64,000 nucleotides of DNA, from positions 1-64,000 of the IMG/VR virus record IMGVR_UViG_3300038468_000223. The stretch is one strand, 5' to 3'. A program made the position numbers and the translations under genes. The notes under the pieces were generated by a model. It had not been told where the DNA came from and did not search any database. It saw nothing but the letters and a program-made list of their open reading frames with translations. Within the stretch, counting starts at the first letter, position 1, and each line of letters begins with the position of its first letter. Of this stretch, positions 3,372 to 62,631 are shown piece by piece. This stretch comes from a virus.

Positions 3372-3395
3372 GAACGTCGAGGCCCCACAGGGTGT

Positions 3396-3707
3396 TTACG
3401 CGAACGGCTCAAGGAAGGTGAGATCCTTGCCGAGTTCGGCGGCGCGGGCGATGCCGCGGCGGGTGGTCTCGCCGATGTAGCCGTTGTAGTTGACGACGAA
3501 GACCTCGCCGGCGAGCGCGACCTTCGCGAGCATCAGCTCGTCGAGCATCTCCTTCTGCACGCTGGTGATCGGCACCATGTCGACGTGGTGGAAGAAGCCC
3601 GCGACCAGCACGATCTTGCCCTTGAGGGTCTCGCGCTGCGCGATGCCAAGGTGGAACTGCTTGAACCTGGTGGAGCCGATGATCGCGACGATCGTGGGCC
3701 TGGGCAT
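3396..3707 (-). CDS. Hypothetical Rossmann-like phage protein
   Basis: IIGSTRF...VFVVNYNGYIGETT pattern, typical of DUF4406 / deoxyribosyltransferase-like proteins. Confidence 0.6.
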   Translation of the reverse strand: MPRPTIVAIIGSTRFKQFHLGIAQRETLKGKIVLVAGFFHHVDMVPITSVQKEMLDELMLAKVALAGEVFVVNYNGYIGETTRRGIARAAELGKDLTFLEPFA

Positions 3708-3895
3708 CAGGCACCTCCTTCGAGTCGCGCTTGCACGTGCGTGATCGTGGCGGACCGCACCTCGAGCCCCGCGAGCATGCGGGTGATCGTCGAGTGGGAG
3801 ATGCCGAGCTTCTTCGAGCTGTTCCTCAGCCCTTCCCTGTCGACGAGGGCTCGGAGCTTGATCTGCAGGGCCTTGGGTGTGATCGCGTCGCTCAT
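3707..3895 (-). CDS. Small helix-turn-helix regulator divergent from the cas gene
   Basis: GLRNSSKKLGISHSTITRMLAG HTH pattern. Confidence 0.7.
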   Translation of the reverse strand: MSDAITPKALQIKLRALVDREGLRNSSKKLGISHSTITRMLAGLEVRSATITHVQARLEGGA

Positions 3896-3907
3896 GTCGA
3901 TCGGAGC

Positions 3908-3950
3908 TTGACACCGTTCGTTCTAGGAGTCAACATCCGAACCGTTGACA
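3908..3950. promoter_or_regulatory. Divergent promoter/operator region
   Basis: TTGACA at 3908 and 3945; inverted repeat TTGAC-N16-GTCAA (3908-3933); CAACAT lies 17 nt after the first TTGACA. Confidence 0.5.
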
Positions 3951-59673: not shown

Positions 59674-60299
59674 ACAACGACTGGATCCAGACGGTCGACG
59701 GCAGGGCCTTCCACTTCCTCGACCCCAGGCCCGAGGACATCGACATCGAGGTCGTCGCGCACGTCCTCTCGCGCGAGGGTCGGTGGGGCAACCACCTCAA
59801 GATGTTCTACTCGGTGGCCGAGCACTGCTACCGCGTGAGCTACGTGTGCGAGCCCCAGGACGCGCTCTGGGGCCTCCTGCACGACCTGGCGGAGGCCTAC
59901 CTGCGCGACATCTCGACGCCGATCAAGCGCCACCTGCGCCACGGCGTCGACGAGGTCGTGCGGCGGCTGAAGCTCGTCATGGACCTCGATCCCGTCCTGG
60001 AGGGGATGATCCGGGGCGCCTGCAGCGACATGCTCGGCTACGACGAGATGGAGCGGCGGATCATGCGCGCGGCCTGCACGAAGTTCGGGCTGCCCGAGCA
60101 GATGCCGGAGTCGGTCGTGCGCGCCGACGCCGTGCTCCTCGTCACCGAGAAGCGCGACCTCGCCGCGCCCCCGCCGCTCCCCTGGGGACGGGCGGACGTC
60201 GAGCCGCTTCCCTACCACATCAACGATCCCTGGACGCCGAAGATGGCTCGAGAGCTGTTCCTCCGGCGCTTCGAGGAGCTGACCCGGAGGAACCCATGA
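59670..60299 (+). CDS. HD-domain phosphohydrolase (YfbR/YfdR-like)
   Basis: FYSVAEH, LLHDLAEAY..DI.TP.K, AD. Confidence 0.88.
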   Translation: MNNDWIQTVDGRAFHFLDPRPEDIDIEVVAHVLSREGRWGNHLKMFYSVAEHCYRVSYVCEPQDALWGLLHDLAEAYLRDISTPIKRHLRHGVDEVVRRLKLVMDLDPVLEGMIRGACSDMLGYDEMERRIMRAACTKFGLPEQMPESVVRADAVLLVTEKRDLAAPPPLPWGRADVEPLPYHINDPWTPKMARELFLRRFEELTRRNP

Positions 60300-60709
60300 A
60301 TGCGATCGAGAGCCTCATCGAGCCCTGCGCCCGCGCGGCGCACGAAGTCAACCGCGCCTACTGCCTGGCACTCGGTGACACGTCCCAGGCCCCCTGGGAC
60401 CACGCGCCGGCGTGGCAGAGGGAGAGCGCGCGCAGAGGCGTGCGAGGCGTCCTGCTCGACGGCAACGGGCCGGGCGCGTCGCACGCGTCGTGGCTCGCCG
60501 AGAAGACGCGGGCGGGGTGGAAGTACGCCCCGATCAAGAACGCTGCTAAGAAGGAGCACCCGTGCATGGTGCCCTTCGAGGAGCTGCCCATCGAGCAGCG
60601 GTACAAGGACGTGCTGTTCGTGGCGGTCGTCAGGCAGGTGGCCACCGCGATCCGCAAGGAGCCGATCGAGGGAGAGGCCGCCCACTACCAGAGCGAGACC
60701 GAGGGATGA
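60296..60709 (+). CDS. RyR-domain phage protein
   Basis: HASW...K..AGWKY...K....K.HPC.VPF.ELP..QR.KD.LF. Confidence 0.85.
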   Translation: MNAIESLIEPCARAAHEVNRAYCLALGDTSQAPWDHAPAWQRESARRGVRGVLLDGNGPGASHASWLAEKTRAGWKYAPIKNAAKKEHPCMVPFEELPIEQRYKDVLFVAVVRQVATAIRKEPIEGEAAHYQSETEG

Positions 60710-62313
60710 ACTGGAGCACCTACCAGCTCGCCTACTTCCGCGACACGGCGCAGGGCACCGGGAACACCGTGCTCGACGCCGTCGCCGGCAGCGGCAAGTC
60801 CACCACCGTGATGGCGGCGATCCCGCACATCCCGAAGGACAAGGACGCGCTCATCACCAGCTTCTCCACCGCCTGCGTCGACGACCTGAAGAAGAAAGGG
60901 AGCGGCGGCGGGTGGGCGGGGCCGGAGATCCGTACGCTCAACAGCCTCGGCTTCCGCGCGTGCCGCGACGAGTTCGGCTCGCTCGAGGTCGACACCGATC
61001 GGATCTACAAGGTGCTCGACAAGGTGACCGGCGAGTCGTCGACGGTGCCGGACTCGCGGCGCGGCGAGTTCAACGCCATGCGCTACCGGCTCAAGCTCAC
61101 CGTCGACCTCGCCAAGAACCACCTCGCCGACAAGCCCGAGCAGATCGTCGAGCTGTGCGACCAGTACGAGATCGCCCAGGACGTCCCCGCGTGGGCCGAG
61201 GACGCGCTCGGTCAGAAGTACGAGGCCGAGGGCAACGAGCTGTTCGCGCGCATGGCGCTCGCCGCGATGAGGATCTGCAAGAAGCCGACGGGCGGCAAGA
61301 TCGACTTCACCGACCAGATCTGGATGCCCGCCGCGCTCAAGCTCGACATGCCGAAATACGATCGCATCTTCGTCGACGAGGCGCAGGACATGTGCGCCGC
61401 GCAGGTGGAGATGGTCTTCCGATCCATCACCAAGGGCGGGCGCCTCTGCGCGATCGGCGACGATCACCAGTCCATCTACGGCTTCCGAGGCGCGGGCATC
61501 GGGATGGCGCCGTTCGTCGAGCGCGGCAAGGCGACCAAGCTCCCCCTGTCGATCAGCTATCGCTGCCCGAAGGCCGTCGTGCGAGAGGCGAAGCGGCTGG
61601 TCCGCCACATCGAGGTGGCCCCCAACGCCGCCGAGGGCCTGGTCGAGACGATCAACGTCGAGACGCTCCCGGGGCGCGTGCGGCCCGGTGACGCCATCCT
61701 CTCGCGCACCAACGCGCCGCTCGTGCGCATCTTCTTCGACTACCTGCGGCGCGGCATCCCCACCGTGATCCAGGGGCGCGACCTCGGCGGGGCCCTCCTG
61801 GCGCTGCTCAACAAGAGCCAGGCTCGGTCGATCGCGGCGCTGCTCGACTACGTCGCGGAGTGGCAGAAGAAGGAGAACGCGGAGCGCCACGCGAAGTTCC
61901 CGAACTGCCGCACCGACTCGATCGACGACCGGGCGGACACGATGCGCATCATCTGCGAGATCTCCTTGAACATCGACGACGTGCGCCGCAACATCCAGCG
62001 CCTGACGCCGCCGGCGAGGGGGGGCGAACGTCGGGGGTCACAGGTGCTTACGGGTCAGGAGGTGGTGCTGTCGAGCGTGCACCGGAGCAAGGGGCGCGAG
62101 TGGACCCGGGTGTTCCTCATCGAGTCGAGCTTCGTGACCTCGGAGCACTACTGGCGCGTGCGCACGAAGGACGGTGGTGCGTCACAGAACAGCAAGCGCT
62201 GGATCCGCGACCGGGTGGCGGAGGCGATCAGGACACCCGAGGACCGCAACATCCGCTACGTCGCGATCACTCGGAGCAAGAGCGAGCTGTACTTCGCCGC
62301 TCCGCCGGTCTGA
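60706..62313 (+). CDS. UvrD/Rep superfamily 1 helicase
   Basis: AVAGSGKST, VDEAQD, GDDHQSIYGFRGA, SYRCP, HRSKGREW, YVAITR. Confidence 0.93.
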   Translation: MNWSTYQLAYFRDTAQGTGNTVLDAVAGSGKSTTVMAAIPHIPKDKDALITSFSTACVDDLKKKGSGGGWAGPEIRTLNSLGFRACRDEFGSLEVDTDRIYKVLDKVTGESSTVPDSRRGEFNAMRYRLKLTVDLAKNHLADKPEQIVELCDQYEIAQDVPAWAEDALGQKYEAEGNELFARMALAAMRICKKPTGGKIDFTDQIWMPAALKLDMPKYDRIFVDEAQDMCAAQVEMVFRSITKGGRLCAIGDDHQSIYGFRGAGIGMAPFVERGKATKLPLSISYRCPKAVVREAKRLVRHIEVAPNAAEGLVETINVETLPGRVRPGDAILSRTNAPLVRIFFDYLRRGIPTVIQGRDLGGALLALLNKSQARSIAALLDYVAEWQKKENAERHAKFPNCRTDSIDDRADTMRIICEISLNIDDVRRNIQRLTPPARGGERRGSQVLTGQEVVLSSVHRSKGREWTRVFLIESSFVTSEHYWRVRTKDGGASQNSKRWIRDRVAEAIRTPEDRNIRYVAITRSKSELYFAAPPV

Positions 62314-62631
62314 TGGTTGGAGTGATGGAGGGTGGTGGACCTGCCGCTGCCGAAGGACCTCGCCGTCGGCAAGATCCTCCCGGCGATGGGGGGCGGCGAG
62401 ATCGGCGCCGCAGTGCACGTCGCTGTTCGGCAACGGCACCCACCAGGTCAACATGCTGGTCCGCGGGTATCGGGTCTCGTTCTTGCTCGACCCCGTCGGG
62501 TTCGTGCTCAAGGTCTGGGGCCCCGACAACTTCTTGCGGCTCGCGCAGGACCCCCGCATCTTCTGGCCCGGCGGGCCCCCGGCCCGCCGGCCCGACACCC
62601 AGTGACCCCCAACGTTCAAGGAAAAGGACCC

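What the first reader, a model, noticed from the sequence alone, without database searches (positions are those of the whole stretch)
3372..62617. Dispersed bipartite motif GAACGWYG-RGG-N2-4-CACHG, about 18 copies in both orientations
Seen at 3372, 14392, 21412, 24983, 27113, 31619, 38193, 43009, 53150 and 62026 (GAAC first) and at 9872, 20705 (degenerate), 25521, 27088, 42443, 50169, 55242 and 62600 (reverse). Many overlap starts or stops: two unrelated genes begin MNVEAPTGW and MNDGAPTGW. Others sit in domain linkers of the primase-polymerase, UvrD and lysin, so they are kept despite coding cost. Pairs bracket gene 24981-25526 and the pth2-tRNA unit, and one copy interrupts repeat element 5 exactly where it stops matching element 2. 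Inference: a genome-wide protein-binding site (stoperator, parS or packaging type) or a recombination site that shuffles modules.
Basis: partly seen in the sequence, partly recalled or inferred. Interest (0 to 1): 0.8.

Follow-up and report, generated by a model that had tools for sequence, protein, structure and literature searches.

The report
Strand-gridded recognition motif in large virus
A 25-30 base asymmetric DNA word occurs 31 times in this 105-kb virus, evenly spaced on each strand and kept in lineage-specific "dialects" by relatives that share its replication genes; it is most likely the start signal read by the virus's own primase, though this is not proven.

Summary
The motif is GAACGWCG-RGG-N2-5-CACWG followed by a G/T-rich tail (GKTGG, usually containing GTG). 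It occurs 22 times in the window and 31 times in the 105,511-bp genome. Shuffles give far fewer: 0.01 expected for the strict pattern, and 1.7 in codon-preserving shuffles.

Copies are split 16:15 between the strands and ignore gene direction. Each strand carries its own evenly spaced grid of about 6.6 kb (p = 0.0009 and 0.00002), so orientations alternate. Twenty-one of the 31 copies fill gene junctions. The rest sit in interdomain linkers of Prim-Pol, an SNF2 helicase, UvrD and DNA polymerase A.

Relatives of 37-63% GC carry homologous dialects, including copies at the same linker positions. The motif travels with the Sak4-like/SSB-like/Prim-Pol module, not with the capsid module. The Prim-Pol model best matches pRN1 ORF904, RepB' and NrS-1, primases that start at specific template sequences.

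Best reading (about 0.4): strand-specific priming signals. Rivals: a dispersed operator or stoperator, a recombinogenic junction repeat, or a nick/Chi-like signal. No mobile-element features were found. The scan has noted similar gridded motifs in other phages.

The parts
   Evidence: regex hit
3372..3390 (+). motif copy; fills the 24-nt spacer between two minus-strand genes, anti-oriented to them
9872..9890 (-). motif copy, intergenic
14392..14410 (+). motif copy; begins exactly where repeat element 14360-14393 stops matching 12417-12450
20705..20723 (-). degenerate copy (TT in place of GA), at the stop of 20346-20723
21412..21430 (+). motif copy at the junction 21181-21444 / 21441-21740
24983..25002 (+). 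motif copy overlapping the ATGA start/stop; encodes MNVEAPTGW
25521..25538 (-). motif copy; the TGA stop of 24981-25526 lies inside it
27088..27107 (-). left half of a head-to-head palindromic pair
27113..27132 (+). right half of a head-to-head palindromic pair
31619..31638 (+). motif copy overlapping the ATGA start/stop; encodes MNDGAPTGW
34747..34766 (-). copy inside the SNF2 helicase gene, residues 71-77, in the linker before the ATPase core; the same position and relative orientation as in relative G001
38193..38212 (+). copy near the 3' end of 36844-38307, in a low-complexity stretch
42443..42460 (-). copy holding the TGA stop of 42239-42448, abutting the tRNA pair
43009..43027 (+). motif copy, intergenic; with 42443 it brackets the tRNA/pth2 unit
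48712..48731 (+). degenerate copy (GT in place of GA) near the 5' end of the AAA_25 helicase gene
50169..50186 (-). copy holding the TGA stop of 49890-50174
53150..53169 (+). copy in the Prim-Pol interdomain linker (residues 182-188, next to the low-confidence stretch 171-189 of the AlphaFold model); a copy is kept in this linker in 8 of 9 genomes read
55242..55259 (-). copy inside or near 54964-55533, anti-oriented
62026..62043 (+). copy in UvrD, residues 441-447 (ERRGSQV)
62600..62617 (-). copy holding the TGA stop of 62453-62605; the next gene's SD follows directly
52606..53757 (+). Prim-Pol gene (AEP domain + helix bundle + OB-like domain); proposed reader of the motif
51041..52602 (+). 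Sak4-like AAA_24 gene and SSB-like acidic protein gene; always next to Prim-Pol in motif-bearing genomes
48638..49705 (+). AAA_25 / DnaB-like helicase gene

Best explanation
The motif is a strand-specific initiation (priming) signal for the virus's own replisome.

Proposed mechanism. The AAA_25 helicase unwinds the genome and the SSB-like protein coats the strands. The 383-aa Prim-Pol (AEP catalytic domain, helix bundle, OB-like ssDNA-binding domain) then recognises the motif on the exposed single strand. It would bind the invariant 5' block GAACGWCG and the CAC block, and start a primer at or near the GTG in the G/T-rich tail. The virus's family-A DNA polymerase would extend that primer.

Because each strand must be primed at bounded intervals, each strand carries its own grid of about 6.6 kb, and the two interleaved grids make orientations alternate. 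Copies are placed where they cost least: intercistronic spacers and interdomain linkers. The word drifts together with the primase, which produces lineage dialects.

Shown: the motif, its statistics, its conservation, its co-occurrence with the replication module, and the primase fold.
For: 1. Per-strand evenness. The + copies have a spacing CV of 0.46 (p = 0.0009) and the - copies 0.315 (p = 0.00002). Permuting the strand labels over the same 31 positions gives p = 0.00008. Orientation alternates: 24 runs against 16.5 expected, p = 0.005. In relatives, 21 of 28 neighbouring copies are opposite (hand count).

2. Orientation ignores transcription. By my count, about 32 copies are co-oriented and 32 anti-oriented with local genes in this genome plus relatives. 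The - grid is most regular in the region where almost all genes are on +.

3. Homologous dialects across 37-67% GC:
- here: GAACGWCGRGG..CACWG
- L192-196, G001, G002: GAACGACARGGRAGCCACGR
- G037: GATCCGACAAGGATTCACTG

4. Orthologous copies follow the local dialect. A copy lies in the Prim-Pol linker in 8 of 9 genomes read, and at SNF2 helicase residues 71-78 in this genome and G001.

5. Co-occurrence with the replication module.
- The only proteins shared by all dense motif carriers are the Sak4-like protein, the SSB-like protein and Prim-Pol.
- Most records with a related capsid, including capsid relatives as close as G037 (50-52% identity: G003, G005), lack this Prim-Pol.
- Those records show no excess of the core pattern.
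- G010, G012 and G036 have no high-copy dispersed word in a de novo search.

6. Primase fold. The Prim-Pol model (pLDDT 87) best matches pRN1 ORF904 including its helix bundle (3m1m, 9aam), RepB' (3h20) and NrS-1. Its C-terminal domain matches OB-fold ssDNA binders.
- pRN1 primase needs GTG in the template (PMC2965215).
- RepB' starts at two 40-nt inverted ssi sites. It binds a 5' single-stranded block and starts in a GTG (PMC8567376).

7. GTG follows CAC in 25 of 31 copies, against 29% at control sites.

8. The virus encodes its own family-A polymerase and helicase.
Against: - There is no biochemical or read-level evidence that synthesis starts at the motif. Only assembled contigs were available.
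- The co-occurrence with Prim-Pol is partly built in, because L112 and L192-196 were found through Prim-Pol.
- G002 lacks this Prim-Pol yet has 4 copies.
- G001 is a 12% fragment of unknown primase status.
- G037's 14 scored copies are neither significantly even nor alternating, though that record is only 51% complete.
- A recognition word of 20 nt or more is far longer than ordinary primase triplets; only ssiA/ssiB are comparable.
- The hairpin that ssiA needs is not supported here. Stem extension is no better than in permuted pairs (p = 0.27 here, 0.46 in relatives).
- Head-to-head and tail-to-tail pairs, and the strong preference for gene junctions, would fit a regulatory or structural site equally well.
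- There is no GC- or AT-skew polarity around the copies.
Confidence: 0.4

Rival explanations
1. Dispersed operator for a virus-encoded DNA-binding regulator, of the kind seen with phage P1 C1 operators, Cluster A stoperators or the Cluster O 17-bp repeats. A monomeric or two-domain protein would bind the asymmetric double-stranded site at gene junctions. It would silence or punctuate transcription, and the palindromic pairs would be high-affinity dimer sites.
For: - 21 of 31 copies lie at gene boundaries or between genes, against 8.4 expected.
- Stop codons lie inside the motif and the next gene's SD follows directly.
- In relatives nearly all copies fill intercistronic spacers.
- Palindromic pairs occur in this genome, L194, L195, L196, G001 and G037.
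- The 27088/27113 pair lies 350 bp from an Xre-type HTH_31 gene on the opposite strand, and the genome has an integrase and Fis-type HTH genes.
- Dialects that co-vary with lineage are what repressor/operator co-evolution gives.
- Dispersed repeats of this sort are described in actinophages (PMC4351075, PMC3203893).
Against: - A double-strand site does not predict separate even grids on each strand.
- Orientation is unrelated to transcription direction.
- Copies are conserved inside helicase and primase genes, where no promoter is expected.
- No DNA-binding regulator is shared by the motif-bearing genomes within the DNA available.
- The spacer between the two conserved blocks varies by 3 bp, which is awkward for a rigid double-strand binder.
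- The sigma-70 promoter scan shows no association with copies.
Confidence: 0.25
2. Recombinogenic or selfish junction repeat, like the T4-type PeSL cassettes or bacterial REP/REPIN elements. Short shared sequences at gene borders would spread, and would mediate insertion, deletion and exchange of small genes.
For: - One orthologous junction is empty in L193, holds a tail-to-tail pair in L195/L196, and holds a head-to-head pair plus a 101-aa ORF in L194.
- Homology between L195 and L196 ends 20 bp from a copy.
- Copy number ranges from 4 (G002) to 31.
- Five inverted pairs lie 520-575 bp apart and bracket small genes (p = 0.0005, post hoc).
- The 14392 copy sits exactly where two repeat elements stop matching.
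- PeSLs are described as such exchange points (PMC2839356, PMC4122927).
Against: - The bracketed segments share no sequence.
- No Y1/RAYT transposase is present.
- There is no promoter-plus-stem-loop composition.
- Only 2-3 of about 25 breakpoints touch a copy.
- In-gene copies are kept at orthologous positions across about 45% protein identity, in the local dialect.
- Per-strand even spacing is not expected of a spreading element.
- Contigs of three runs show no rearrangement at any copy (contigs only).
Confidence: 0.13
3. Another strand-specific DNA signal read by the recombination/repair module (PD-(D/E)XK nuclease, UvrD, Sak4-like protein). It could be a site-specific nick site, as in phages with localized single-strand interruptions, or a Chi-like control sequence for a helicase-nuclease.
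For: - Strand specificity and even spacing.
- The G/T-rich tail is often CTGGTGG-like.
- The PD-(D/E)XK nuclease and UvrD are shared with G037 and L192.
Against: - Chi-type signals are (from memory) polar with respect to DNA ends or replication direction. Here the strands alternate along the whole genome.
- The word is about three times longer than known Chi sequences.
- No nick data exist.
- The nuclease and UvrD were not seen in all motif-bearing loci, although those loci are short.
Confidence: 0.1

Closest known systems
ssiA/ssiB priming signals of plasmid RSF1010, read by the AEP primase RepB'
   Same: - Long, asymmetric recognition sequences on complementary strands (inverted orientation).
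- A conserved 5' block is bound by the primase and synthesis starts in a downstream GTG (PMC8567376).
The Prim-Pol model here has that layout and matches 3h20.
   Different: - RSF1010 has two sites in one origin; here there are 31, forming a genome-wide grid on each strand.
- The ssi hairpin is essential there and not supported here.
- The word is about 25-30 nt rather than 40.
- No sequence similarity was seen.
- Function is untested here.
Template recognition by pRN1 ORF904 and phage NrS-1 primase-polymerases
   Same: - These are the best structural matches of this Prim-Pol.
- pRN1 primase makes primers only on templates with GTG (PMC2965215), and GTG is enriched in the motif tail.
   Different: - Those recognition words are 3-8 nt, not 25-30 nt.
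- As far as I know, no genome-wide grid has been described for them.
Stoperators of Cluster A mycobacteriophages and C1 operators of phage P1 (from memory); Cluster O 17-bp repeats (PMC4351075)
   Same: - Tens of copies of a short conserved site spread through a phage genome.
- Many copies lie in short intergenic spaces, some inside genes.
- Lineage-specific versions exist.
   Different: - Stoperators follow the direction of transcription, and Cluster O sites are dyad-symmetric.
- This motif is asymmetric, strand-balanced, evenly spaced per strand, and has a variable internal spacer.
PeSL promoter/terminator cassettes of T4-type phages (PMC2839356, PMC4122927)
   Same: Repeats at gene borders that are associated with indels between close relatives.
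   Different: - No promoter-plus-terminator composition here.
- Not confined to hyperplastic regions.
- Conserved inside core replication genes.
Start-associated sequences of Cluster K mycobacteriophages (PMC3203893)
   Same: The motif contains an SD-like purine block. In G002, three of four copies sit 0-3 nt upstream of a start codon.
   Different: - Half of all copies are anti-oriented to the genes.
- Only about 10 of 31 copies are followed by a plausible start.

Membership tests
ssi-type primase initiation signals (RSF1010 ssiA/ssiB) | An AEP primase with catalytic and helix-bundle domains is encoded by the same replicon | tested here: met
   Pfam Prim-Pol hit. The AlphaFold model has a helix bundle at 198-271 and matches 3m1m, 9aam and 3h20.
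ssi-type primase initiation signals (RSF1010 ssiA/ssiB) | Sites lie on complementary strands in inverted orientation | tested here: met
   16 + and 15 - copies, alternating (p = 0.005), with an even grid on each strand.
ssi-type primase initiation signals (RSF1010 ssiA/ssiB) | Essential base-paired hairpin between the 5' block and the start triplet | tested here: not met
   Stem extension around CAC..GTG is no better than in permuted pairs (p = 0.27 here, 0.46 in relatives).
ssi-type primase initiation signals (RSF1010 ssiA/ssiB) | GTG start triplet downstream | tested here: met
   GTG lies within 12 nt after CAC in 25 of 31 copies, against 29% at control CACWG sites.
ssi-type primase initiation signals (RSF1010 ssiA/ssiB) | Primer synthesis starts at the site | not testable with these tools
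   Needs a primase assay or nascent-strand mapping. Only contigs were served.
Cluster A stoperators | Many copies of a short asymmetric site in short intergenic spaces | tested here: met
   21 of 31 copies at junctions or intergenic.
Cluster A stoperators | Orientation tied to the direction of transcription | tested here: not met
   About 13 copies co-oriented and 16 anti-oriented here; about 32:32 with relatives included.
Cluster A stoperators | Bound by the immunity repressor | not testable with these tools
   An HTH_31 candidate lies at 26461-26739(-). No binding data exist.
PeSL cassettes | Composite early promoter plus stem-loop terminator | tested here: not met
   No sigma-70-like hexamers at the copies. 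The hairpin is not supported.
PeSL cassettes | Copies lie at indel or replacement borders between close relatives | tested here: inconclusive
   One clear polymorphic junction and 2-3 of about 25 breakpoints.
REP/REPIN with RAYT | Cognate Y1 (IS200-like) transposase present | tested here: not met
   PF01797 has no match in the genome.
REP/REPIN with RAYT | Imperfect palindrome, extragenic | tested here: inconclusive
   The single unit is not palindromic here; the 5' half is palindromic in the G037 dialect. Ten copies lie inside genes.
Cluster K start-associated sequences | Co-oriented with the gene and a few bases upstream of its start | tested here: not met
   Only about 10 of 31 copies are followed by a plausible start, and half are anti-oriented.
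Chi-type recombination hotspots | Strand bias polar to DNA ends or replication direction | tested here: not met
   Strands alternate along the whole genome.

The most novel reading that the evidence does not exclude
A large virus with its own replisome writes into its genome two interleaved, evenly spaced grids, one per strand, of a roughly 25-nt primase start signal. The signal is recoded into gene junctions and protein linkers and co-evolves as dialects with a three-domain Prim-Pol. Priming of both strands would then be hard-wired in cis rather than left to short, frequent triplets. The scan's notes on other phages suggest this may be a general but undescribed design.
Probability: 0.4. Interest if true: 0.8.

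Novelty: new variant of a known kind. Interest (0 to 1): 0.64.

Why it matters
If the motif is the start signal of the viral primase, it gives a directly testable cis/trans pair: a 383-aa Prim-Pol and a 25-nt word with natural dialects. That pair could be used to study how AEP primases choose templates. It would also show that a large virus can fix the positions of DNA synthesis starts on both strands.

The motif is selected at the DNA level. It is conserved from 37% to 67% GC. It is written through protein linkers. It is therefore a practical marker for this little-known virus lineage and its replication module, and a constraint on how these genomes can evolve.

Several other phages in this scan show similar evenly spaced, strand-alternating words, so the phenomenon may be widespread.

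Tried and rejected
- **Mobile element with terminal inverted repeats.** The ten segments bracketed by inverted copies share no sequence, and there is no Y1 transposase.
- **Invertible or excisable segments.** Contigs of three wetland runs span the copies unchanged, with no joint at any copy. Only contigs were served, so minority forms cannot be excluded. 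No RNA holder was listed.
- **RNA or ssDNA hairpin.** CAC..GTG stems do not extend more than in permuted pairs. No Rfam family matches.
- **Translation-initiation element.** Only about 10 of 31 copies precede a plausible start, and half are antisense to the genes.
- **Sigma-70 promoter or intrinsic terminator.** No association. One terminator-like call overlaps 43009. In the AT-rich relative G037, two copies do look terminator-like.
- **CRISPR link.** The 36-nt repeat at 5650-7080 and its spacers are unrelated to the motif.
- **Replication skew.** No GC or AT skew polarity around the copies.
- **Relatives through UvrD or a single capsid protein.** None found; alignments were needed.
- **Megablast of 10 kb against known phages.** No match.
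- **Whole-record searches of the metagenome loci.** Not possible.
- **Candidate binders among the cargo genes.** Pfam gave nothing for the small genes bracketed by pairs.

Full report
**What the window is.** The window is the first 64 kb of a single 105,511-bp contig of 67.2% GC. IMG/VR classes it as a virus record with direct terminal repeats. It has no close relative among deposited phages. It encodes:
- a tyrosine recombinase;
- a CRISPR array;
- a tmRNA and two tRNAs;
- two DNA methyltransferases;
- a replication/recombination set: PD-(D/E)XK nuclease, AAA_25 DnaB-like helicase, Sak4-like AAA_24 protein, an SSB-like acidic protein, Prim-Pol, DnaQ-like exonucleases, ThyX, UvrD, an SNF2 helicase, and a 1076-aa family-A DNA polymerase fused to UDG and other domains.

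Gene coordinates come from my own codon-bias caller. They are approximate at start codons.

**The observation.** A regex for the core finds 22 copies in the window and 31 in the genome. The four missed in the window are 2851(-), 9352(+), 34747(-) and the degenerate 48712(+).

The aligned copies give [C/T]GAACG[A/T]CG[G/A]GG, then 2-5 variable bases, then CAC[T/A]G, then a G/T-rich tail of about 7 nt. Nothing is conserved upstream. GTG lies within 12 nt after CAC in 25 of 31 copies, against 29% at other CACWG sites.

Chance is excluded:
- the strict pattern gives 11 hits against 0.01 expected;
- the looser regex gives 31 hits against a mean of 1.7 (maximum 6) in 200 shuffles that keep every protein sequence and the codon usage;
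- in IMG/VR the strict pattern gives only single hits per contig among the 80 loci listed.

**Arrangement.** Sixteen copies are on + and fifteen on -.
- *Location.* Twenty-one of 31 copies lie within 30 nt of a gene boundary or between genes, against 8.4 expected.
- *At junctions.* Typically the upstream gene's TGA lies inside the motif (tGAACG in one orientation, CAGTGAc in the other) and the next gene's SD follows directly.
- *Inside genes.* The in-gene copies sit in linkers: Prim-Pol residues 182-188, next to the only low-confidence stretch of its model (171-189); SNF2 helicase 71-77, before the ATPase core; polymerase A about residue 125-131, between DUF4326 and the SLOG domain; and UvrD 441-447.
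- *Reading frame.* The frame differs from copy to copy, so the constraint is on DNA.
- *Gene direction.* Orientation is unrelated to gene direction: about 13 copies co-oriented and 16 anti-oriented.
- *Alternation.* Consecutive copies alternate in orientation: 24 runs against 16.5 expected, p = 0.005.
- *Per-strand spacing.* Each strand taken alone is evenly spaced. The + copies have CV 0.46 (p = 0.0009) and the - copies CV 0.315 (p = 0.00002). Permuting strand labels over the same 31 positions gives p = 0.00008.
- *Largest gap.* It is 7.8 kb, against a median of 12.5 kb for random placement (p = 0.01).
- *Pairs.* Two pairs are head to head and form 17-20 bp palindromes: 27088/27113, and 80984/81003 outside the window.
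- *Short spacings.* Five inverted pairs lie 520-575 bp apart (p = 0.0005, post hoc).

**Relatives.** Prim-Pol homologues led to loci L112 and L192-L198. A motif search of IMG/VR led to records G001 and G002. An alignment of a conserved virion-module protein (83590-84924, here called the capsid protein) led to 39 loci, 38 records of which were then searched.
- L192-196 (53-63% GC), G001 and G002 carry GAACGACARGGRAGCCACGR followed by (A)GGTGG. There are 3-8 copies per 15-37 kb, none in shuffles, in both orientations.
- G037, the full record behind L112 (37.6% GC), carries GATCCGACAAGGATTCACTG followed by TTGGTTG. It has at least 14 copies in 59 kb, all at gene edges.
- The shared core is CGAC-RRGG-N3-5-CAC-NR-(G/T)TGG.
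- In relatives nearly all copies fill intercistronic spacers, about half of them anti-oriented.
- Twenty-one of 28 neighbouring copies are opposite in orientation (my count).

**Conserved positions.** A copy lies in the Prim-Pol linker in this genome and G037 (+), in L192-196 (-), and twice in L198. L197 has at most a degenerate trace. In the protein alignment the linker is otherwise unalignable. The only recurring peptides there (RGSLVV, and TSGLPLV-like) are the translations of the motif.

In the SNF2 helicase, this genome and G001 (45% identical) both carry an anti-oriented copy at residues 71-78, each in its own dialect (PVQAPSF here, SVASLSV in G001). The copies are therefore old, maintained, and changing in concert. 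That points to a co-evolving trans factor.

**What the motif travels with.** Of 38 records searched, only G037 has the full-length Prim-Pol. Four others have only partial AEP-domain matches inside much longer frames. Capsid relatives as close to this virus as G037 lack this Prim-Pol or carry only such a partial match (G003-G005, 50-52% identity). They show no excess of the core pattern over its reversed control.

In G010, G012 and G036, which I read in full, no dispersed high-copy word appears in a de novo search. The same search recovers the motif in G037, G001 and G002. G002 is complete, lacks the Prim-Pol, and has only four copies, all within 4.9-16.7 kb.

The only proteins shared by all dense carriers are the Sak4-like protein, the SSB-like protein and Prim-Pol. 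Part of this link is built in, because most carriers were found through Prim-Pol, and the loci are short.

**The candidate reader.** The AlphaFold model of Prim-Pol (mean pLDDT 87) has:
- an AEP domain;
- a long helix;
- a low-confidence linker;
- a helix bundle (198-271);
- a beta-rich C-terminal domain.

Its best PDB matches are pRN1 ORF904 with its helix bundle (3m1m, 9aam), RepB' (3h20) and NrS-1. The C-terminal domain matches OB-fold ssDNA binders (PrgE, RPA).

The literature on these matches is relevant. pRN1 primase makes primers only on templates with GTG (PMC2965215). RepB' starts on two 40-nt inverted ssi sites. It binds a 5' single-stranded block and starts within a GTG, and RSF1010 replicates only in leading-strand mode (PMC8567376).

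**Interpretation.** A signal that must recur at bounded intervals on each strand, regardless of transcription, and that co-varies with a replication module, fits a strand-specific step of DNA synthesis better than a double-strand regulator site. I therefore rank "priming signal of the viral Prim-Pol" first, at about 0.4.

Weak points of this reading:
- no direct evidence of initiation;
- no support for a hairpin;
- G037's copies are not significantly gridded;
- G002 has four copies without this primase;
- the word is unusually long for a primase recognition site.

The dispersed-operator reading (0.25) explains the junction preference, the palindromic pairs and the nearby Xre-type gene. It does not explain the per-strand grids or the conserved in-gene copies.

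The recombinogenic-repeat reading (0.13) rests mainly on one junction. That junction is empty in L193, holds a pair in L195/L196, and holds a pair plus a small ORF in L194.

A nick or Chi-like signal (0.1) remains possible.

**Relation to earlier notes of this scan.** Other agents have reported evenly spaced, strand-alternating words in unrelated phages, several of which they also read as primase start sites. These notes are unchecked and are not independent support. I reached the primase reading, before reading them. One of those bold readings was later given low odds, which argues for caution here too.

Noticed in passing
window 24122-24476 (+): A full-length tmRNA (Rfam RF00023, 100 bits; ARAGORN tag ANDNITPQKAAA) is encoded by the virus. 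In the metagenome contigs this bin has about five times the depth of its neighbours, so similar sequence is abundant in the sample.
   Followed up: partly
window 42461-42614 (-): Two adjacent tRNA genes. ARAGORN reads one as anticodon TTA (a stop-codon reader) and the other as Arg-TCG. They are bracketed by the inverted motif pair 42443/43009.
   Followed up: no
window 5650-7080 (+), with 4139-5668: A CRISPR-like array of about 18 copies of a 36-nt repeat (GGCGGAAGGCGTGAGCGGGTGGTTGGAGTTTGGAGG) lies directly after a 509-aa ORF that earlier notes call Cas12f-like. A tyrosine recombinase follows at 7528-8520.
   Followed up: no
window 11630-15760: A second repeat family: a hairpin GGCGAGCC-N4-GGCTCGCC followed by CGTCGAA, with 5-6 copies upstream of small + strand genes. 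Copy 14341-14393 is 97% identical to 12417-12450 and ends at the 14392 motif copy.
   Followed up: partly
G000 69010-72240 (+), outside the window: A 1076-aa fusion protein: DUF4326, SLOG (YAcAr), uracil-DNA glycosylase, 3'-5' exonuclease and family-A DNA polymerase. A motif copy (69384, -) lies in the linker after DUF4326.
   Followed up: partly
L193 7650-7830: Five copies of GAGTGCAGG within 180 bp, just after a motif copy and upstream of a TTGACC promoter-like site shared with L194. This looks like an operator array.
   Followed up: no
G001 (IMGVR_UViG_3300027824_000008), whole record: Besides the main dialect, a second word GCGACTGGAAGCACTGG occurs 5-8 times. It may be a second dialect of the same motif within one genome.
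   Followed up: no
window 26850-27165 (+): A small ORF with a lipoprotein-like signal (lipobox LGC) starts divergently from the Xre-type HTH_31 gene and appears to run into or through the palindromic motif pair 27088/27113 (frame not checked).
   Followed up: no
window 31306-31531: A 12-nt tandem repeat of about 20 copies (GCCGCCGCCAAC) lies inside 30982-31620. Contig depth is raised and length variants of 3 nt appear in the three runs.
   Followed up: no
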